64,000 bases of DNA from Candidatus Thalassarchaeaceae archaeon (GCA_023700245.1 JAJPRE010000005.1:7106-71105), one strand, 5' to 3'. Positions 6,704 through 49,731 are shown, counted from the stretch's first letter. A program made the numbers and translations. The notes: generated from the letters alone by a model not told the origin.

Positions 6704-6788
6704 GCAGGGGTACCCGAGTGGTCAAAGGGGCTGGGTTTAGGTCCCAGTGCGTAGTGCTTCGCAGGTTCAAATCCTGTCCCCTGCACCA
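6704..6788 (+). tRNA. tRNA-Leu (anticodon UAG), class II with long variable arm and encoded CCA
   Basis: Acceptor GCAGGGG/CCCCTGC. Anticodon stem CTGGG/CCCAG with loop TTTAGGT. Variable arm about 13-16 nt. T-arm GGTTCAAATCC. Discriminator A followed by CCA. Confidence 0.9.
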
Positions 6789-43029: not shown

Positions 43030-43923
43030 ATGTCTCTTCGGCTCACCATGGTGAAACTAATTCAAGTTGAAGTTCCCCTGAAAATAGATTTGGCTGGAAG
43101 TTGGACCGATATTCAACCATATGCATCTGATTTTGGTGGTGAAGTAGTTAATTTTGCAATTAACGTCAATATCAATTGTGAAATAGAAGTTGAAAATGGA
43201 GATTTAAAAAAAGTAAAATATTCTACTGAAATGCCTATTGATTTAGAGCTAAAAACAACTAATGGAGTTGATTTTAAATTTTTAACAAAAATAACTGAAG
43301 GAATTAAATCTTTGGAGTATCTCAATAAATTTACTCACGAATTAGAGAATTTAATAAAAAATACTGGAAATATTCATGTACCATGGATAAATTCTAGAGG
43401 CGGATTTAATCATACTTTATTTTTAGGTAAAGAGATTGAACCTATGCCTTTTGAACCAATGAAATCGTCAAAAAATTGGTTAAAAAAACATTTTATTATC
43501 ATTTATAGCGATATTGATAATAACACAAGTGAAATCCATAAAGATGTGTGGAATAGATATGAAAATAAAGATGAAGAAGTTCTCAAAGGTTTACATTGTT
43601 TAAGGGCGGCAGCCAGAGTAATGGCCAATGGCCTTCAAAAGGACCGTAGAGAATTGGTAGTCAATGCACTAAAAGAAATATCAGCAGGTATTGATTTGAT
43701 AAGTCCTGAAATTCATAGACCATTTAGAGACGTGATGGATCCATTGGTCAATAATAAAAGTGTAATAGCATGGAAAGCACTTAGTTCATGCGGAGGAAAA
43801 ACATTAGGAGTATTGTGTTCACCAAATGGGAGGGAGGCAACCATAAAGAGAATTGAGGAAATGGGATGGCAGAATATAGAATGGGACTACAACGAACATG
43901 GGATAAAAGTAGTTAAAAAATAA
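43030..43923 (+). CDS. Divergent GHMP-kinase-like protein lacking the canonical phosphate-binding motif
   Basis: N-terminal PLKIDLAGSWTDIQPY resembles fucokinase-type GHMP motif I. The C-terminal AWKALSSCGGKTLGVL sits in place of motif III. No PxGSGLGSSxA motif II was found. Confidence 0.5.
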   Translation: MSLRLTMVKLIQVEVPLKIDLAGSWTDIQPYASDFGGEVVNFAINVNINCEIEVENGDLKKVKYSTEMPIDLELKTTNGVDFKFLTKITEGIKSLEYLNKFTHELENLIKNTGNIHVPWINSRGGFNHTLFLGKEIEPMPFEPMKSSKNWLKKHFIIIYSDIDNNTSEIHKDVWNRYENKDEEVLKGLHCLRAAARVMANGLQKDRRELVVNALKEISAGIDLISPEIHRPFRDVMDPLVNNKSVIAWKALSSCGGKTLGVLCSPNGREATIKRIEEMGWQNIEWDYNEHGIKVVKK

Positions 43924-43961
43924 TTCATATATCAGAAATATCTAACTTTGGGACACCAAGT

Positions 43962-46900
43962 ATGAAACGTCTTAATATGTCCGTACTTATTATGATGCGC
44001 CGTAGAGGGTTTTTGGCTTCAGTGCTCATCATAGTTCTGATAGTCCCGCTGGCTTCATCTTCAATATTGCCATCTAAAAAAACAGATGGCGGGCTAGATG
44101 CTGACGGAGAATGGCAGAGTAGTATGGAATCTGGCATCCACAACGATTGGTGGCTAGATTGGAGCAGAGATAAAAACAATAATATGTTAGATGATAGATT
44201 AGAATGGTTATTGGATCAAACTGCTGAAATTCAACATAATTGGTGGAAAAGAGCACCTAATGGTAGTTCAAGAGTAATAGTAGATTATGATCATCACCCT
44301 AGTAATAAAGACATAGAGGCACTAGAGAATATTGGGGCAGAAGTAACATTTAGGCCAATTTATCTTGATAGTCTAATCATAACAATACCATTTGAACCTA
44401 TTTTGAACATAAATGGGATTCGCTCATTACAAGGAGTAGTGATGATTGAAGATTTAGGGTTGGCAGAACCAAATATGAATGAAGCAGTTCCTAATATGGG
44501 AGTAAATGGAGTTTGGGAAGATTTTGGATTAGACGGTACTGGTTCAACTATAGCAATTCTAGATACTGGAATTAGAGGAGATCATGAAGGACTAAATGAT
44601 ATGGATGACGATCCCCTAACATGCATAAGTGAGCCTCCTGACCCCTTAAATCCAAATCCCGAACCAATATCAGATTGCGACCCGAAAATAATAGGATTTT
44701 TTGATGCTGTATTCACTGATGATGAACAAGATCCAGCATCATCATATGATTCTGGGACACATGGCAGTCATGTTGCTGGAATTGCAGCCGGAAGTGGAGG
44801 AGGGCAAGCCGATCCGGTTAGTGGAATGAGATATATTGGAGCTGCTCCAGGTGCATTTCTAATAAATATATTAGCTTGCTGCGATGGAGACATTGAAGAT
44901 ATCATTCAAGGTGCAGAATGGGCCATAGAAAATAAAGAAAAATATGGCATAGATATTTTGACATCTTCACTTGGTGAACAACAAGTTGAGATTCATTTTG
45001 ATAATGATGGTAGTTCGGCATGGAGTAGGCAGATGGATTATGTTGTTGAATCTGGAATAATTACCACATTATCTGCTGGAAATGAATTTGGAGGAGCTAC
45101 TTTTGCTGGCTGTAATACAATCGATAGCCCCGGTGATGCAGAATTGCCAGTAACTGTTGGAAGTTTAGATAAAGATCTTGGTTTGGCAATTTATAGTAGT
45201 AGAGGATATACTTCTGATTTACGAGTGAAGCCTGATGTAGCAGTAATAGGATCAAATATAATGGCCCCGGATGCTGCGACGAGTGATGGATATACTAGTA
45301 AATCTGGAACAAGTATGGCAACTCCTTTGATGGCAGGAATTGCGGCCTTAATGGTACAAGCAAATCCCGATTTGACTCCTGAAGAATTTAAAGACATCAT
45401 TCGTGCAGATTCTATTGAAAGGGAGTTGACCCTGCTTAATGACCCAGGATTAAATGATTGTAGTATAATTGAGACTAGGCCAGATAATGAATTTGGATAC
45501 GGGCAGGCAGACCCTGTAAAATTTGTAGAATCAGCAGGAAGTATCGATCGTTCGCTCAATATTTCAATGAATATAGAGACTTTACAGGAAATAGGTAACC
45601 AGAGTTATGTTGGAGGATTTTCTTCTGGGGCAGCACCTGGGCAAGGAGAAGTCCAAGTAAGAGTTGGCGGAGGTATTTGGAAAGGTGCGGCTGATCTTAC
45701 TGGAGATTGGAGTGAATGGAGATTAAAACTTGAGCCTCATGAACAATCTGGGAACTCTACAATATATGCAAGGTTAGTGATGAGTGAGGATAGTATTTCT
45801 CCCGTGGATGCGAAAAGAGTTATACTTATTGATGGAGTATCCAAAAGTGGAATTGTAAATGGAGAATTGATATCAATGGGATCATTTATATTCTTTTTTC
45901 CATTTATTATAGTCCTAGGAATATTAGCATATGTGATGATTAATGAACGATGGGTAGATAAAATGAAGTCTAATAAGACATCAAATAATGTTGATTTAGT
46001 ATCAAATTATTCAAAAATAAATACGGAGTCATTTAACATATTTATTTGGTTTGAAAAAATAAATAAAGAATGGAACAATGGGGCTTCATTGATTGAGAAC
46101 CAATTTAGAAGATATATTTCTTTGTGTGTTTTATATATTGCCCAAGGATTACCTGCAGGTTTTACATATGTAGCATTTGTAGCGTATCTTACTGATAATG
46201 GAACTCCTCCTGCAGATATAGCGATATTATTTGCAACTGTTGCCCTTCCTTGGACATTCAAATTTATTTGGGGGCCATTAATTGACTTGCTCGTGATTCC
46301 TGAATATGGGATAAGACGCCCTTGGATCTTATTTGCACAATCTGGAATGGTAATATCTTTATCGACATTGTTATTTATTCCAAATATTATTGATTCCATA
46401 GCATTAGTAACGATATTATTATTTATTCATAATCTATTTTCATCGCTACAAGATGTAAGCGTAGATGCTTTGGCTGTTGACGTATTAAGGCCGGATGAAG
46501 TTGCTAAAGCAAATGGATTTATGTTTGCATCTAAGAGAGGTGGAATGATTTTTGGTGGGGCAGTTCTAGGCCTATTGGTTGTACCTTATGGCATCAAATC
46601 TGCAATAATGCTACAAATACCAATATTAATAATTATGATGAGTTTGCCACTTTTCCTACGCGAGAAACCAGAGAATAAACTATTCCCATGGGAAAGTAGC
46701 AGAGAAGAAAATGAAATAACTGTACAGGAAGATGAAGTGATTAAAAGTTCAGAATTGACATGGGAGGGAGATGATAATCCACGGTTCAAAGGTGCTAGAT
46801 GGGCAGCAAATAACATATATTACAATAAAATTAGTATTACTGCTGCATTTTTGTGGATTGGAATTATTACATGGGTATTTGGAGGTGCAATAAATATAAT

Positions 46901-47828
46901 TCATTTGATCGGGCACCCATATCCTGATGGAGTATTTCATGGCCCATTAGTTACATTATCATATGTTGGAACATTTGGATCATACTGTATCCTCACATCA
47001 ATAATAATGATGATAATGGAGGCATTAGGAACTAAATTACCAATTGTCACTAGCCCCTTAGCATTTTCATCACCGGAATCTAAAAAGAATATTGCTACAA
47101 CAATTTACCATATTGTTCAAGGTTTTTCAACAAGATCTTCATTTCTTTTAATATTCTTATGCCTGCTTTCTGATCTTGCATTGTTTGTTGATCCAATTGT
47201 AATTGATATTTTTATTAATGAGGCTGGATGGTCTCAAGGAAAATACAATGCCATAGTTGGTGGAATTGTAGTATTATTCACAATGTTAGGCCAAGTAATC
47301 GGCGGAATCATAGGAGATAGGTTTGGAGTAAGGGAAGTTGCCATGGTTGGATTTACCCTTCTTGCTTTGGCTAATGCTGGTCTAGCATTATTGAATGGGT
47401 ACTGGACGGATACGACTATAATGACATTTTATCTATGTATTAAAGCAGTAATATATGGAATAGCATGGATATGCGTAATATCTGTTTCAATGCGATTAAC
47501 ATTCAGTAAAGCTGGAGGTACTCAATTTACTGCGTACATGTCAATGTTCAATCTTTCTGCAGTTTTTGCATACCTATTTTCTGGTAAAATGATTGCTGCC
47601 TTTGATTATCTGACTATGTTATACATAGGTGCAGCATTAACTATGATATCTGTAATTATGCTAGTATTCATAGATCCAGATGAAACTGATAGAGTTTTGG
47701 AAGGTAAGTTAGATCAAGAAGATAATGGAGAAAATGGAGGGGACTTTGGAGAAGGACTTTGGCCAACTGATGAAGAGTTAATTGATACAGACATCCTCGG
47801 AGGTAATGATAATGTTACAATTGCATGA
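43962..47828 (+). CDS. S8 subtilisin-like protease fused to an AmpG/PAT-family MFS permease
   Basis: Single 1288-aa ORF. Signal or anchor at aa 16-33. Catalytic motifs AILDTG (D201), SGTHGSHVAG (H267) and SGTSMATPLMAG (S451). TM anchor at aa ~637-660. MFS part from aa ~716 carries the AmpG-like motifs QGLPAGF, FKFIWGPLIDL, GIRRPWIL and SSLQDVSVDALAVDVL. Confidence 0.85.
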   Translation: MKRLNMSVLIMMRRRGFLASVLIIVLIVPLASSSILPSKKTDGGLDADGEWQSSMESGIHNDWWLDWSRDKNNNMLDDRLEWLLDQTAEIQHNWWKRAPNGSSRVIVDYDHHPSNKDIEALENIGAEVTFRPIYLDSLIITIPFEPILNINGIRSLQGVVMIEDLGLAEPNMNEAVPNMGVNGVWEDFGLDGTGSTIAILDTGIRGDHEGLNDMDDDPLTCISEPPDPLNPNPEPISDCDPKIIGFFDAVFTDDEQDPASSYDSGTHGSHVAGIAAGSGGGQADPVSGMRYIGAAPGAFLINILACCDGDIEDIIQGAEWAIENKEKYGIDILTSSLGEQQVEIHFDNDGSSAWSRQMDYVVESGIITTLSAGNEFGGATFAGCNTIDSPGDAELPVTVGSLDKDLGLAIYSSRGYTSDLRVKPDVAVIGSNIMAPDAATSDGYTSKSGTSMATPLMAGIAALMVQANPDLTPEEFKDIIRADSIERELTLLNDPGLNDCSIIETRPDNEFGYGQADPVKFVESAGSIDRSLNISMNIETLQEIGNQSYVGGFSSGAAPGQGEVQVRVGGGIWKGAADLTGDWSEWRLKLEPHEQSGNSTIYARLVMSEDSISPVDAKRVILIDGVSKSGIVNGELISMGSFIFFFPFIIVLGILAYVMINERWVDKMKSNKTSNNVDLVSNYSKINTESFNIFIWFEKINKEWNNGASLIENQFRRYISLCVLYIAQGLPAGFTYVAFVAYLTDNGTPPADIAILFATVALPWTFKFIWGPLIDLLVIPEYGIRRPWILFAQSGMVISLSTLLFIPNIIDSIALVTILLFIHNLFSSLQDVSVDALAVDVLRPDEVAKANGFMFASKRGGMIFGGAVLGLLVVPYGIKSAIMLQIPILIIMMSLPLFLREKPENKLFPWESSREENEITVQEDEVIKSSELTWEGDDNPRFKGARWAANNIYYNKISITAAFLWIGIITWVFGGAINIIHLIGHPYPDGVFHGPLVTLSYVGTFGSYCILTSIIMMIMEALGTKLPIVTSPLAFSSPESKKNIATTIYHIVQGFSTRSSFLLIFLCLLSDLALFVDPIVIDIFINEAGWSQGKYNAIVGGIVVLFTMLGQVIGGIIGDRFGVREVAMVGFTLLALANAGLALLNGYWTDTTIMTFYLCIKAVIYGIAWICVISVSMRLTFSKAGGTQFTAYMSMFNLSAVFAYLFSGKMIAAFDYLTMLYIGAALTMISVIMLVFIDPDETDRVLEGKLDQEDNGENGGDFGEGLWPTDEELIDTDILGGNDNVTIA

Positions 47829-48102
47829 ATGGATTGAAAAAACTGAGACTGATTTCATATTATTTTCACAGACAATTTGCCCATATTGTAATTTGGCAAA
47901 GAGATTATTAAAATCAAAAAAATTATCATTTACCGAAGTAAATCTTGACCATCATGAAGGATTAAGAGATTCAGTAGTAATGGAAACGGGGCATAGGACC
48001 GTACCAGCAGTATTTGATTTAAGGAATTCTAAACCATTATTTATCGGAGGTTCGGACCATTTAATAAGGTATTTTAAGGACACAAAAAACGTTAAAAAAT
48101 AG
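47806..48102 (+). CDS. Glutaredoxin
   Basis: CPYC active site in a thioredoxin-fold context (ILFSQTICPYCNLAKRLL) and TVPAVF. The start overlaps the 3' end of the upstream gene. Confidence 0.8.
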   Translation: MIMLQLHEWIEKTETDFILFSQTICPYCNLAKRLLKSKKLSFTEVNLDHHEGLRDSVVMETGHRTVPAVFDLRNSKPLFIGGSDHLIRYFKDTKNVKK

Positions 48103-48729: not shown

Positions 48730-49686
48730 TCAAATAGACCAAGATTGGGTTATACCGCCTGCCACTATAAATCTAAAATAGCTTTCACCACTAAATGTCA
48801 GAGTTAGAGTATATTCCTCCGAAGGATACGGTATAGTCCCAAGTGTCCCCGATTCTGTTGAACCTGGTCCCCAAACCCGTTCAAGTACTGATATTGATAG
48901 GTGGTCCCTAAGAGTCATCGATATCGATGAAGATCCCCCCCCACAATTTGCATCTAAGAAATATATCATCTCGTCCCATGCACCATCATTTGGATGATCA
49001 CTGACCAAGAATGAGTCTTGTACTTCTGCGTCTGGACCATTGCTTTCCCAAATATCGCTAAAAAGATCACCTCCCCTTACAAAATAAACATCTCCTGAAT
49101 GCCCAGTTCCTGAATCTACTTGCATCATCTTTAGATTTTCGACATTGTTTGAATCTGTCCAAATAAAGGTTGAAAAGAATTTAATATTAGAATCAAATGT
49201 ATATACTAATTTTGAACCATCATTAGATGATGCGTGAATAACTGCTAAATTTGAATCTAAAGAAACCACAATTGCACTCCATTCAATAGTAAACAAAGAA
49301 AAATCCCAAGATTTTTCAACTTCTAATGGAAAATTAAGTACTTGCTGTGCAACGCCGTTTTCAAATGCACTTAGATGATCATGCGTCATCCTTCCAAGAA
49401 AAGGATTATGATTCAGAACAGCATGACGGCGAGCTTCAGTTAAACTAGAGATTGTCAGCATATATGCAGTATTATCTTCTTCTGTATCTGAAGCAACAAC
49501 AAGTCTTGCAGTATCGTCATTATAATCAGGAGTGGAAAATGTATACAACCAATAATCTCCAATATTCCAAGTTGGTACTTCAATTTCATCTTTAGAATTG
49601 GATATAGTATCATTATTTTGCGTACATCCAGATAAAGGCATAACGAGTATTAATATCGTCAAACCAATTATGACTGACTGTTTCAT
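48730..49686 (-). CDS. Secreted lipoprotein, unknown function
   Basis: Signal MKQSVIIGLTILILVMPLSGC. No recognisable domain. Confidence 0.6.
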   Translation of the reverse strand: MKQSVIIGLTILILVMPLSGCTQNNDTISNSKDEIEVPTWNIGDYWLYTFSTPDYNDDTARLVVASDTEEDNTAYMLTISSLTEARRHAVLNHNPFLGRMTHDHLSAFENGVAQQVLNFPLEVEKSWDFSLFTIEWSAIVVSLDSNLAVIHASSNDGSKLVYTFDSNIKFFSTFIWTDSNNVENLKMMQVDSGTGHSGDVYFVRGGDLFSDIWESNGPDAEVQDSFLVSDHPNDGAWDEMIYFLDANCGGGSSSISMTLRDHLSISVLERVWGPGSTESGTLGTIPYPSEEYTLTLTFSGESYFRFIVAGGITQSWSI

Positions 49687-49731
49687 AACAACTCGTGAAG
49701 CCAATTATTCAAGAGGTTGGCGGTAAGAAGA

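What the first reader, a model, noticed from the sequence alone, without database searches (positions are those of the whole stretch)
43962..47828. Subtilisin-like protease covalently fused to an AmpG/PAT-family MFS permease
A single uninterrupted 1288-aa ORF encodes an N-terminal signal or anchor and a complete S8 protease (D201, H267, S451 in canonical motifs). A beta-rich domain, a TM helix (aa ~637-660) and a ~55-aa linker follow. The last part is an MFS domain with strong AmpG-like motifs: QGLPAGF, FKFIWGPLIDL, GIRRPWILFAQ and SSLQDVSVDALAVDVLRPDE, the last compared with E. coli AmpG SASQDIVFDAWKTDVLPAEE recalled from memory. The topology is self-consistent: the protease is outside, the anchor helix returns the chain to the cytoplasm, and an MFS domain normally begins on the cytoplasmic side. 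The AmpG family belongs to the peptide/acetyl-CoA/drug transporter group. The fusion would place extracellular proteolysis directly at the mouth of a putative peptide importer, which would suit a protein-scavenging planktonic cell. I know of no characterised protease-MFS fusion.
Basis: partly seen in the sequence, partly recalled or inferred. Interest (0 to 1): 0.7.

Follow-up and report, generated by a model that had tools for sequence, protein, structure and literature searches.

The report
Surface protease fused to membrane transporter
Abundant marine planktonic archaea (Marine Groups II and III) make one conserved protein that joins an outward-facing protein-cutting enzyme to an AmpG-like membrane transporter, probably so that digestion products are taken up before they drift away; no paper found here describes it.

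Summary
Window 43962-47828 (+) is one uninterrupted 1288-aa ORF. It encodes a signal peptide, a propeptide-like region, a complete S8 subtilase (D201/H267/N374/S451), a small beta domain, one anchor helix, a variable about 50-aa linker, and a 12+2-helix MFS whose closest relatives by sequence and fold are AmpG and SLC33A1.

The fusion is not an assembly artefact. 74 of 80 species-representative Poseidoniales genomes carry one open frame with both halves, and 5 of the other 6 are cut by contig ends. A 46%-identical version occurs in Marine Group III.

Both modules are strongly conserved (75-85% identity) and the linker is not (27%). AmpG's motif-A adaptation and its Lys/Asp-Asp proton-coupling cluster are invariant, but sugar-pocket residues differ and the curated AmpG cut-off is missed. 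It is AmpG-like, not an AmpG orthologue.

New finding: the same anchor-MFS scaffold also carries an M28 metallopeptidase, an unknown all-beta "domain A", a cupredoxin, or another unknown domain. The M28 and domain-A versions sit at the same syntenic locus.

Best reading, with roughly even odds: tethered extracellular proteolysis coupled to proton-driven import of the products. Transport, substrate and direction are untested. No paper describing the fusion was found.

The parts
43962..47828 (+). Whole gene: 1288-aa S8 protease - anchor helix - AmpG-like MFS fusion, stop codon included
   Evidence: Uninterrupted ORF. Full-length homologues at 55-96% identity in at least 80 Poseidoniales species genomes.
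43962..44069 (+). aa 1-36: N-terminal signal peptide or signal anchor (positive n-region RRR, hydrophobic core 12-39, PLASS)
   Evidence: Hydropathy peak of 2.55 at 18-36. Region identity is only 38%. The twin arginine is not conserved in homologues (consensus MxGRxAA), so Sec export is more likely than Tat; this is inference.
44070..44501 (+). aa 37-180: conserved N-extension plus a propeptide-like beta-alpha-beta region, a probable intramolecular chaperone or inhibitor of the subtilase
   Evidence: 63-68% conserved. It is the only part of the ectodomain that AF2 folded (strand-helix-strand-strand, pLDDT 65-84). The nearest solved protease, Tk-SP (3afg), is a pro-subtilase. No Pfam I9 hit, so the assignment is inferred.
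44502..45503 (+). aa 181-514: S8 subtilase catalytic domain; D201, H267, S451 and oxyanion N374
   Evidence: PF00082 at 192-514, E 1.3e-42. PDB 3afg E 1.2e-40. The triad and Asn are invariant in 75 sequences. This is the most conserved region, at 85%.
45504..45851 (+). aa 515-630: small beta-rich domain after the protease, in the position of the C-terminal beta-jelly-roll of Tk-SP
   Evidence: 76% conserved. Beta strands in the AF2 model, at low confidence. No Pfam or PDB profile match.
45852..45953 (+). aa 631-664: single anchor transmembrane helix (core 642-660) followed by the invariant E662-R663-W664 and K667
   Evidence: Strongest hydropathy peak, 2.78. Helix 642-661 in the AF2 model. Invariant F644, P647, F648, E662, R663, W664 and K667. 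The same helix precedes the MFS in every paralogue.
45954..46106 (+). aa 665-715: variable cytoplasmic linker
   Evidence: Only 27% identity across the family. Length varies among homologues.
46107..46661 (+). aa 716-900: MFS N-half (TM1-6) with the AmpG-type motif A (K767, W770, P772, D775, R785, R786, W788) and the TM4 acidic cluster D831/D835/D840
   Evidence: TIGR00901, MFS_1 and Acatn hits. Alignment to E. coli AmpG 9c3f. Residue roles from PMC11568325. Invariant in 75 sequences.
46662..47111 (+). aa 901-1050: acidic central loop plus two extra, poorly conserved transmembrane helices (about 956-984 and 1001-1023) inserted between the MFS halves
   Evidence: Hydropathy. AF2 helices at 959-984 and 993-1021. 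31-41% identity. An internal two-helix insertion is described for P. aeruginosa and A. baumannii AmpG (PMC11568325). It is absent from the M28, cupredoxin and domain-B paralogues.
47112..47681 (+). aa 1051-1240: MFS C-half (TM7-12)
   Evidence: Second MFS_1 stretch and TIGR00901 coverage to 1236. 77% conserved. Only weakly alignable to AmpG (5.8 bits).
47682..47825 (+). aa 1241-1288: acidic, variable cytoplasmic tail, after the conserved DPDExDRVLEG
   Evidence: 17 D+E against 2 K+R. 36% identity. pLDDT below 50.

Best explanation
The gene encodes a single polytopic surface protein of a Marine Group II (Poseidoniales) archaeon. After Sec export and probable signal-peptide cleavage, a pro-subtilase ectodomain (propeptide-like region, S8 catalytic domain, small beta domain) sits outside the cell. 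One anchor helix brings the chain back in, and a flexible linker of about 50 residues on the cytoplasmic side leads into a 14-helix (12+2) proton-coupled MFS permease of the AmpG/PAT lineage. I propose that the tethered protease cuts dissolved or particulate protein at the cell surface, and that the adjoining permease imports the resulting oligopeptides (possibly glycopeptides) before they diffuse away. That would be a covalent form of 'hydrolyse and capture' for a cell that has no outer membrane or periplasm to retain products. Shown here: the architecture, its topological coherence, its conservation, and the integrity of the catalytic and transport residues. Inferred: coupling, substrate, direction of transport, and that the mature protein stays in one piece.
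For: (1) One ORF with both domains above the Pfam thresholds. (2) Fused in 74 of 80 species-representative genomes, including single-cell genomes and a PacBio MAG; five of the other six are cut by contig ends and one only failed my motif pattern. Also fused in Marine Group III at 46% identity. No split version was seen among the best 150 of 1.84 billion representatives. (3) Both modules are under strong constraint (S8 85%, MFS halves 75-77% identity) while the linker is free (27%), as expected for two working modules joined by a tether. (4) D201, H267, N374 and S451 are invariant. So are the AmpG functional residues K62, W65, P67, D70, R80, R81, W83, D125 and D129, here K767, W770, P772, D775, R785, R786, W788, D831 and D835. 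This argues for an active proton-coupled transporter rather than a dead anchor. (5) An unrelated peptidase fold, M28, with all metal ligands invariant, is fused in the same way to the same MFS family in about 57 clusters. It sits at a syntenic locus: Grx, FSH1 hydrolase, a 320-aa unknown, H+-PPase at 69% identity, and GATase. (6) S08A and M28A are reported as dominant and highly transcribed extracellular peptidases of MG-II and MG-III (PMC4660358; PMC6864105). (7) A precedent exists for coupling an extracytoplasmic hydrolase to an AmpG-family importer, non-covalently: A. baumannii AmpG1 and Slt (PMC13507758). (8) Characterised bacterial relatives named in the hits (AmpG, RhtX/FptX) are importers of large amide-rich substrates; this rests on established knowledge.
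Against: There is no transport or protease assay. The transporter family itself does not indicate peptides: AmpG recognises mainly the disaccharide (PMC11568325), and here Y152 is K858, K132 is A838 and Y59 is W764. The C-half is barely alignable to AmpG, and TIGR00901 is missed by a wide margin (147 against 350 bits). The same scaffold also carries a cupredoxin, an unknown beta domain A and an unknown domain B. Domain-A versions nest inside the S8 clade at the identical locus, so a peptidase is not obligatory for the scaffold. SLC33A1, another relative, moves substrate out of the cytosol, so direction is open. The full-length AF2 model was poor (pLDDT 49.6), so nothing can be said about whether the active site faces the transporter mouth. 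Subtilases autoprocess, so the ectodomain might be shed.
Confidence: 0.5

Rival explanations
1. Display scaffold. The anchor-MFS module is mainly a stable membrane platform on which Poseidoniia display interchangeable ectodomains (S8, M28, cupredoxin, domains A and B). The transporter has its own unrelated substrate, and the protease simply works as a cell-bound exoenzyme.
For: At least five different ectodomain types sit on the same scaffold, two of them not peptidases. The NJ tree suggests ectodomains were swapped between MFS clades and within one orthologous locus. The genomic neighbourhood is housekeeping and gives no peptide-uptake context.
Against: A single anchor helix is already present and would be enough for display, so a conserved 14-helix permease is an expensive extra. 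The fusion has been kept without a single split over divergence down to 46-55% identity. Two unrelated peptidases converge on the same transporter family.
Confidence: 0.22
2. Export or envelope maintenance. The MFS moves a molecule outward (a precursor peptide, or a lipid-linked or envelope component), and the fused protease or aminopeptidase matures or remodels it, or the S-layer, outside the cell. This would be analogous to peptidase-containing ABC exporters, or to LanT/LanP.
For: MFS direction cannot be read from sequence. The relative SLC33A1 exports acetyl-CoA from the cytosol (hits). 14-helix efflux pumps (EfpA, QacA) are among the structural neighbours. Protease-transporter fusions with a maturation role are known (PCATs; established knowledge).
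Against: No biosynthetic or precursor genes lie nearby, and synteny is with riboflavin, GHMP-kinase, Grx and H+-PPase genes. The closest relatives by sequence and fold are importers (AmpG first). Order-wide conservation fits core nutrition better than a specialised product. M28 is an exopeptidase typical of nutrient trimming.
Confidence: 0.13
3. Processed precursor. The fusion is only a biogenesis device. The subtilase autoprocesses and is released as a soluble secreted protease, leaving an independent transporter.
For: Subtilases remove their own propeptides, and Tk-SP-type enzymes mature by autoprocessing (established knowledge; nearest PDB 3afg). The region between the beta domain and the anchor is variable.
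Against: There is no conserved cleavage motif at the junction. Release would forfeit the advantage of tethering in dilute seawater. The same signal peptide-ectodomain-anchor-MFS design is used for non-proteolytic ectodomains that cannot release themselves.
Confidence: 0.1
4. Artefact. Two adjacent genes were merged by a sequencing or assembly error.
For: None found.
Against: The same continuous frame occurs in 74 independent genomes from many studies and technologies. The junction region (anchor helix with the ERW motif) is itself conserved.
Confidence: 0.01

Closest known systems
AmpG anhydromuropeptide permease (E. coli; PDB 9c3f, 9j9z, 8zgz; TCDB 2.A.1.25 PAT family)
   Same: Best sequence match in the PDB (E 2.8e-10) and best Foldseek match (E 1.3e-12). 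It shares the AmpG-specific motif A adaptation, Lys62 and the Asp125/Asp129 carboxyl pair. It has 14 helices, with the extra pair inserted between the halves as in the P. aeruginosa and A. baumannii AmpG proteins.
   Different: 147 bits against the curated 350 for TIGR00901. Y152 is K, K132 is A and Y59 is W, and the C-half is barely alignable. The host is an archaeon, for which no murein is expected. It has an N-terminal 640-aa ectodomain plus an extra anchor helix that AmpG lacks.
A. baumannii AmpG1-Slt coupling (PMC13507758)
   Same: An AmpG-family importer is physically coupled to the extracytoplasmic hydrolase that makes its substrate. This is the same logic as proposed here.
   Different: That coupling is non-covalent, through a periplasmic domain of the permease. 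The enzyme is a lytic transglycosylase, and the work was done in a bacterium with experimental support. Here the coupling is covalent, the enzyme is a protease, and nothing has been tested.
Tk-SP, subtilisin-like protease of Thermococcus kodakarensis (PDB 3afg)
   Same: Closest solved protease (E 1.2e-40). It is an archaeal pro-subtilase with a C-terminal beta domain.
   Different: Tk-SP is a soluble secreted enzyme without a membrane anchor or transporter.
Peptidase-containing ABC transporters (PCAT/AMS bacteriocin exporters, C39 peptidase domain)
   Same: The classical example of a protease covalently fused to a transporter (established knowledge).
   Different: In those, the peptidase is cytoplasmic, the transporter is a primary ABC exporter, and the role is leader-peptide removal during export. 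Here the protease is extracellular and the transporter is a secondary MFS carrier that is probably an importer.
SLC33A1/AT-1 acetyl-CoA transporter and the BT1 and RhtX/FptX relatives
   Same: Members of the same MFS lineage are hit by the N-half: Acatn (E 9e-7), RhtX/FptX (94 bits), and BT1 in homologues.
   Different: All are far below the family cut-offs, have different substrates, and have no ectodomain.

Membership tests
Subtilase, peptidase family S8 (PF00082) | Pfam profile above the gathering score | tested here: met
   146.5 bits against 21.8, covering model positions 1-288 of 288.
Subtilase, peptidase family S8 (PF00082) | Catalytic triad in Asp-His-Ser order within the DTG, HGxH and GTSMAxP motifs, plus the oxyanion Asn | tested here: met
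   D201, H267, S451 and N374; invariant in 75 sequences.
Subtilase, peptidase family S8 (PF00082) | Proteolytic activity | not testable with these tools
   Needs expression and assay.
Major facilitator superfamily (PF07690) | Profile above the gathering score and a 6+6 helix organisation | tested here: met
   101.2 bits against 33.4. Six plus six helices with a two-helix insert, from hydropathy and the AF2 model at pLDDT 60-88. MFS structures fill the Foldseek list.
Major facilitator superfamily (PF07690) | Motif A between TM2 and TM3 (central Asp plus Arg pair) | tested here: met
   WGPLID775...GIR785R786PW788 aligned to AmpG W65...D70...R80R81GW83; invariant.
AmpG family sensu stricto (TIGR00901 / NF008238) | Curated NCBIfam cut-off | tested here: not met
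   TIGR00901 147 against 350 bits; PRK11010 53 against 756; PRK11902 75 against 656.
AmpG family sensu stricto (TIGR00901 / NF008238) | N-domain proton and substrate cluster Lys62, Asp125, Asp129, Lys132 (PMC11568325) | tested here: inconclusive
   K767, D831 and D835 are conserved and invariant; Lys132 is replaced by the invariant A838.
AmpG family sensu stricto (TIGR00901 / NF008238) | Disaccharide-pocket residues Tyr59 and Tyr152, and C-domain Lys235/Asp238/Glu336 | tested here: not met
   Y59 is W764 and Y152 is K858. The position of K235 is acidic (D/E1071). The C-half alignment scores only 5.8 bits, so the C-domain mapping is weak.
AmpG family sensu stricto (TIGR00901 / NF008238) | Two extra helices beyond the 12 MFS helices | tested here: met
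   Helices at about 956-984 and 1001-1023 between the halves, in the arrangement PMC11568325 describes for P. aeruginosa and A. baumannii AmpG.
AmpG family sensu stricto (TIGR00901 / NF008238) | Transport of GlcNAc-1,6-anhydroMurNAc(-peptides) | not testable with these tools
   Implausible in an archaeon without murein (established knowledge), but not tested.
Peptidase-containing transporter of the PCAT type | Cytoplasmic C39 peptidase fused to an ABC exporter | tested here: not met
   There is no C39 or ABC domain. The protease is S8 and lies between a signal peptide and an anchor helix, that is, outside the cell.

The most novel reading that the evidence does not exclude
Poseidoniia (Marine Groups II and III) have evolved a modular class of 'ecto-enzyme-transporters'. 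An AmpG-like proton symporter carries, on an extra anchor helix, exchangeable extracellular cassettes: S8 endoprotease, M28 aminopeptidase, a jelly-roll-like binding domain, or a cupredoxin. These cassettes generate or capture the transporter's substrate at its mouth. Cassettes have been swapped repeatedly, even within one orthologous locus. If so, this would be a new, covalent solution to the diffusion-loss problem of extracellular digestion in free-living plankton, and a main route of protein-carbon uptake by some of the most abundant archaea in the surface ocean.
Probability: 0.35. Interest if true: 0.85.

Novelty: new variant of a known kind. Interest (0 to 1): 0.66.

Why it matters
Marine Group II archaea are among the most abundant uncultured plankton, and they are thought to live on dissolved and particulate protein. 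How they keep the products of extracellular digestion without a periplasm is not known.

A conserved protein that welds the dominant extracellular peptidases (S8, and in other lineages M28) to a proton-driven permease gives that question a concrete, testable molecular candidate. It also means that genes counted in surveys as 'extracellular S8/M28 peptidases' are in part transporter fusions.

For transporter biology, this would be an unusual case of a secondary carrier covalently joined to an extracytoplasmic hydrolase, with evidence that the ectodomain is an exchangeable cassette.

Tried and rejected
(1) The full-length AF2 model (aa 89-1288, 40-sequence MSA) was poor: mean pLDDT 49.6, with the S8 domain unfolded. 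It was used only for helix counting in the MFS part and for a cautious Foldseek run, and no inter-domain geometry was drawn from it.

(2) The AF2 model of paralogue 'domain A' had pLDDT 49 and was all-beta. Foldseek gave only weak matches to CBM/lectin jelly-rolls (E about 1e-4, TM 0.2-0.5). I treat this as a hint, not an assignment.

(3) Domain A as a remnant of the S8 ectodomain or its beta domain: rejected. BLASTP gave E 0.9 and hhalign probability 0.1. Pfam and PDB profile searches were negative.

(4) Tat export: the window protein has RRRGFL, but the twin arginine is not conserved in the family consensus, so this is not adopted.

(5) Operon-based functional inference: the neighbours are riboflavin synthesis, a GHMP kinase, glutaredoxin, an alpha/beta-hydrolase, H+-PPase and PolX. 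None gives a functional link.

(6) Other members of this MFS family in the 64-kb window: none.

(7) Foreign origin of one half: the GC difference between the halves (0.389 against 0.344) is what a hydrophobic membrane domain would give, and both halves are conserved in synteny, so this was not pursued.

(8) Nine literature searches found no description of the fusion.


Full report
**1. The observation**

Window 43962..47828 (+) is a single ATG-initiated ORF of 1288 codons with no internal stop.

- Pfam finds Peptidase_S8 over 192-514 (E 1.3e-42, full model length), MFS_1 (E 7.4e-29) and Acatn (E 9e-7).
- NCBIfam's best hit for the C-terminal half is TIGR00901, 'AmpG family muropeptide MFS transporter', over residues 716-1236 (E 6.4e-43). 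The score of 147 bits is far below the curated 350-bit cut-off. RhtX/FptX follows at 94 bits.

**2. Anatomy and topology**

Hydropathy and the helices of a moderately confident AF2 model of the membrane part (pLDDT 60-88) give the following layout:

| Residues | Feature |
|---|---|
| 1-36 | Signal peptide |
| 37-180 | Conserved N-extension and a propeptide-like beta-alpha-beta unit |
| 181-514 | S8 domain |
| 515-630 | Small beta domain |
| 642-660 | Isolated, very hydrophobic anchor helix, followed by the invariant ERW and K667 |
| 665-715 | Variable linker |
| 716-900 | MFS TM1-6 |
| 901-1050 | Acidic loop with two extra helices (about 956-984 and 1001-1023) |
| 1051-1240 | MFS TM7-12 |
| 1241-1288 | Acidic tail |

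The ectodomain is strongly acidic (99 D+E against 36 K+R). Its position between a signal peptide and an anchor helix puts it outside the cell. The odd extra helix then lets the MFS start from the cytoplasmic side, as MFS proteins do. This topology is inferred from sequence and has not been measured.

The nearest solved protease is Tk-SP, the pro-subtilase with a C-terminal beta domain from Thermococcus (3afg, E 1.2e-40). The nearest solved transporters are AmpG (9c3f, 9j9z, 8zbb, 8zgz) and then SLC33A1. This holds by sequence and, with the caveat of a low-confidence overall model, by Foldseek.

**3. It is real and conserved**

- A word-indexed search returned 784 relatives. The best 120 are all 1255-1317 aa, 63-96% identical, and carry both S8 and MFS Pfam domains. 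Source names are Euryarchaeota, Methanobacteriota or Candidatus Thalassarchaeaceae MAGs. JGI's automatic name is 'subtilisin family serine protease/MFS family permease'.
- In one genome per GTDB species, 136 relatives were confirmed. All but one of the best 80 are from Poseidoniales, Thalassarchaeaceae or more broadly labelled marine archaeal MAGs; the exception, L066, carries a Neomarinimicrobiota label (see section 8). They include single-cell genomes (AG-422-I22, AG-343-E09) and a PacBio MAG with a 533-kb contig. The closest genome is UBA557 at 96%.
- I re-read those loci. 74 of 80 have one open frame containing both S8 and MFS signature motifs. Five of the other six are cut by contig ends, and one 1293-aa frame merely failed my pattern.
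- An exhaustive HMMER pass over 1.84 billion 50%-identity representatives found the double-domain architecture in only two clusters. P0121 represents MGII. P0123, at 46% identity, has member names that include 'Marine Group III euryarchaeote' and 'Candidatus Poseidoniia'. Any other protein matching both halves would have ranked near the top, so the fusion appears confined to the class Poseidoniia.

**4. Both halves look functional**

- Identity to the window protein across 23 diverse homologues is 85% (S8), 76% (beta domain), 75% (MFS N-half) and 77% (MFS C-half). It is only 27% in the linker, 36% in the extra helices and 36% in the tail.
- D201, H267, N374 and S451 are invariant in 75 sequences.
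- I used the residue roles defined for E. coli AmpG (PMC11568325) and the alignment. The AmpG-type motif A and the proton and substrate cluster are retained and invariant: K62=K767, W65=W770, P67=P772, D70=D775, R80/R81=R785/R786, W83=W788, D125=D831, D129=D835, D134=D840.
- By contrast K132 is A838, Y152 is K858 and Y59 is W764. The C-half, which in MFS proteins contributes much of the specificity, aligns to AmpG at only 5.8 bits.
- That paper also notes that P. aeruginosa and A. baumannii AmpG carry their two extra helices between the halves, as this protein does.

My conclusion is that this is a working proton-coupled carrier of the AmpG lineage. It is not an AmpG orthologue and not a muropeptide carrier.

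**5. The same scaffold carries other ectodomains**

This is the most informative result. Just below the S8 fusions are proteins whose MFS part is 40-65% identical to the window's but which have other N-terminal extensions. Each has its own signal peptide and the same anchor helix and acidic linker.

- *P0130:* Peptidase_M28 plus MFS. About 57 clusters at 90% identity, 844-960 aa, 55-100% identical, from marine Euryarchaeota or Thermoplasmatota MAGs. All M28 metal-ligand and catalytic motifs are invariant: H116/D118, D142/D143, E176/E177, D210, H297.
- *A second M28 group of about 890 aa:* one member is named Thalassarchaeaceae. These have a much more divergent AmpG-like membrane part.
- *P0132:* a cupredoxin plus MFS.
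- *P0124, P0125, P0131 and P0427-P0436:* an unknown all-beta 'domain A' of about 210 aa plus MFS.
- *P0129:* a different unknown domain plus MFS.

**6. Positional equivalence**

The window's gene order is rib operon (ribB and others), a GHMP-kinase-like gene (43030-43923), the fusion, a glutaredoxin overlapping its 3' end, an FSH1-type alpha/beta-hydrolase, a 324-aa unknown, H+-PPase, a GATase and PolX.

- The domain-A-MFS gene P0428, on a 1.5-Mb contig, sits in exactly this order, gene for gene. So does a 1229-aa S8-MFS variant.
- The M28-MFS gene has the same downstream block: Grx 47%, hydrolase 40%, unknown 52%, H+-PPase 69% and GATase 36% identity to the window's proteins. A homologue of the GHMP-like gene lies 5 kb upstream.
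- The cupredoxin-MFS lies elsewhere, next to acyl-CoA and 3-hydroxyacyl-CoA dehydrogenases. The MGIII S8-MFS is also elsewhere.
- A neighbour-joining tree of the MFS core, with no support values and therefore only indicative, places the domain-A proteins of 882 and 770 aa inside the MGII S8 clade. It puts M28, cupredoxin, domain B and another domain-A protein in a second clade, the MGIII S8 fusion outside both, and stand-alone 430-460-aa MFS proteins further out.

Ectodomains therefore behave as cassettes that have been exchanged on a conserved anchor-MFS scaffold, including within one orthologous locus.

**7. How it most likely works**

A tethered ecto-enzyme generates, or in some paralogues perhaps captures, substrate at the entrance of a proton-driven importer. 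For this gene that means protein is cut to oligopeptides (possibly glycopeptides) that are then taken up.

Arguments for this reading:
- The fusion has been kept without exception across deep divergence.
- Both modules are under constraint and the tether is free.
- The transport machinery is intact, so this is not a dead anchor.
- Two unrelated peptidase folds converge on the same transporter family and locus.
- S08A and M28A are reported as dominant and highly transcribed extracellular peptidases in MG-II and MG-III (PMC4660358; see also PMC6864105).
- There is an experimental precedent for coupling a periplasmic hydrolase to an AmpG-family importer (A. baumannii AmpG1-Slt, PMC13507758).

Arguments against, or still open:
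- The transporter family does not itself indicate peptides.
- Non-peptidase ectodomains exist on the same scaffold.
- Direction of transport is not known.
- Shedding of the protease is possible.
- I could not obtain a structural model good enough to examine docking.

The rivals are a display scaffold (0.22), export or envelope maturation (0.13), a processed precursor (0.10) and an artefact (0.01). They are set out in the Rival explanations section with their refuting results.

**8. Comparison with what is known, and novelty**

Each domain is a member of a known superfamily: S8 membership is met on every tested feature, and MFS membership is met. AmpG membership in the strict sense fails the curated cut-off and the sugar-pocket residues, although the mechanism-related N-domain features are shared.

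The known protease-transporter fusions (PCATs) differ in every respect: a cytoplasmic C39 peptidase, an ABC transporter, and export. The architecture is present in public databases under automatic names. Nine full-text searches found no paper that describes or discusses it. Li et al. 2015, which highlights S08A and M28A in these archaea, does not use the word 'transporter' at all.

I rate it a new variant of a known kind: known modules in a new, order-wide, apparently modular combination. I give it moderately high interest because of the ecological weight of the organisms.

**9. Limits**

- There is no experimental evidence.
- Both AF2 models were low-confidence.
- The tree has no support values.
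- Family-level taxonomy (MGIIa against MGIIb) of the M28 and domain-A lineages could not be resolved from the record names.
- Within-genome co-occurrence of the paralogues could not be tested.

Noticed in passing
L084-L086 (gene at L084:6001-8610); proteins P0130, P0349-P0404: A second conserved fusion family: Peptidase_M28 ectodomain, anchor helix and the same AmpG-like MFS (844-960 aa, about 57 clusters). It lies at a locus syntenic with the window's S8-MFS locus (Grx, FSH1 hydrolase, 320-aa unknown, H+-PPase, GATase). The M28 metal ligands are invariant.
   Followed up: partly
L087:6001-8649 (P0428); also P0124, P0125, P0131, P0427-P0436, P0439-P0455: An unknown all-beta 'domain A' of about 210 aa replaces the S8 ectodomain on the orthologous anchor-MFS gene, at exactly the same rib-GHMP-[gene]-Grx-hydrolase-unknown-H+-PPase locus. 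It has no Pfam or PDB homologue. A low-confidence AF2 model weakly resembles CBM/lectin jelly-rolls.
   Followed up: partly
L090/L091:6001-7983 (P0326, P0132): A cupredoxin (plastocyanin/azurin-type) ectodomain fused to the same MFS family (660 aa), on contigs of 0.8-1.2 Mb. It sits between an acyl-CoA dehydrogenase and a 3-hydroxyacyl-CoA dehydrogenase. Why a copper protein is tethered to this carrier is unexplained.
   Followed up: no
P0407-P0422, for example P0413 (890 aa, named Candidatus Thalassarchaeaceae): M28 ectodomain and anchor helix joined to a very divergent AmpG-like membrane domain. The PFFLRPLWAQPVDR...GRRRSW motif is retained, there is only a weak Acatn hit, and the MFS core is 16-17% identical to the window's.
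   Followed up: partly
window 48730-49704 (-): A conserved 324-aa neighbour with no Pfam family. It has an N-terminal hydrophobic segment ending in a lipobox-like LSGC. It is present next to the fusion in 65 of 80 S8-MFS loci, and also at the M28-MFS and domain-A-MFS loci.
   Followed up: partly
window 47782-48102 (+): A glutaredoxin-like ORF (106 aa from a TTG start) overlaps the last 47 nt of the fusion gene. The overlap and orientation are conserved in S8-MFS and domain-A-MFS loci, but the gene is inverted at the M28-MFS locus.
   Followed up: partly
window 43030-43923 (+): A 297-aa ORF 38 nt upstream of the fusion has no Pfam hit itself, but it is 46% identical to a neighbour annotated GHMP_kinases_N in L001. 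An AT-rich TATA-like stretch (ttcatatat, 43923-43932) lies in the short intergenic gap.
   Followed up: partly
L010 and L027 (both from MAG UBA181): Two S8-MFS genes only 74.5% identical are assigned to one MAG. They are either true paralogues or a mixed bin. The two TMED192 loci (L053, L055) are 100% identical and so are probably duplicated contigs.
   Followed up: partly
L066 (contig NZWI01000049.1): An S8-MFS gene (66% identity) lies on a 24-kb contig of a MAG labelled Candidatus Neomarinimicrobiota. This is probably a mis-binned Poseidoniales contig. The locus GC is 53%, against 37% for the window.
   Followed up: no
window 6704-6788 (+): tRNA-Leu, the only RNA gene found in the window by Rfam and ARAGORN.
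   Followed up: no
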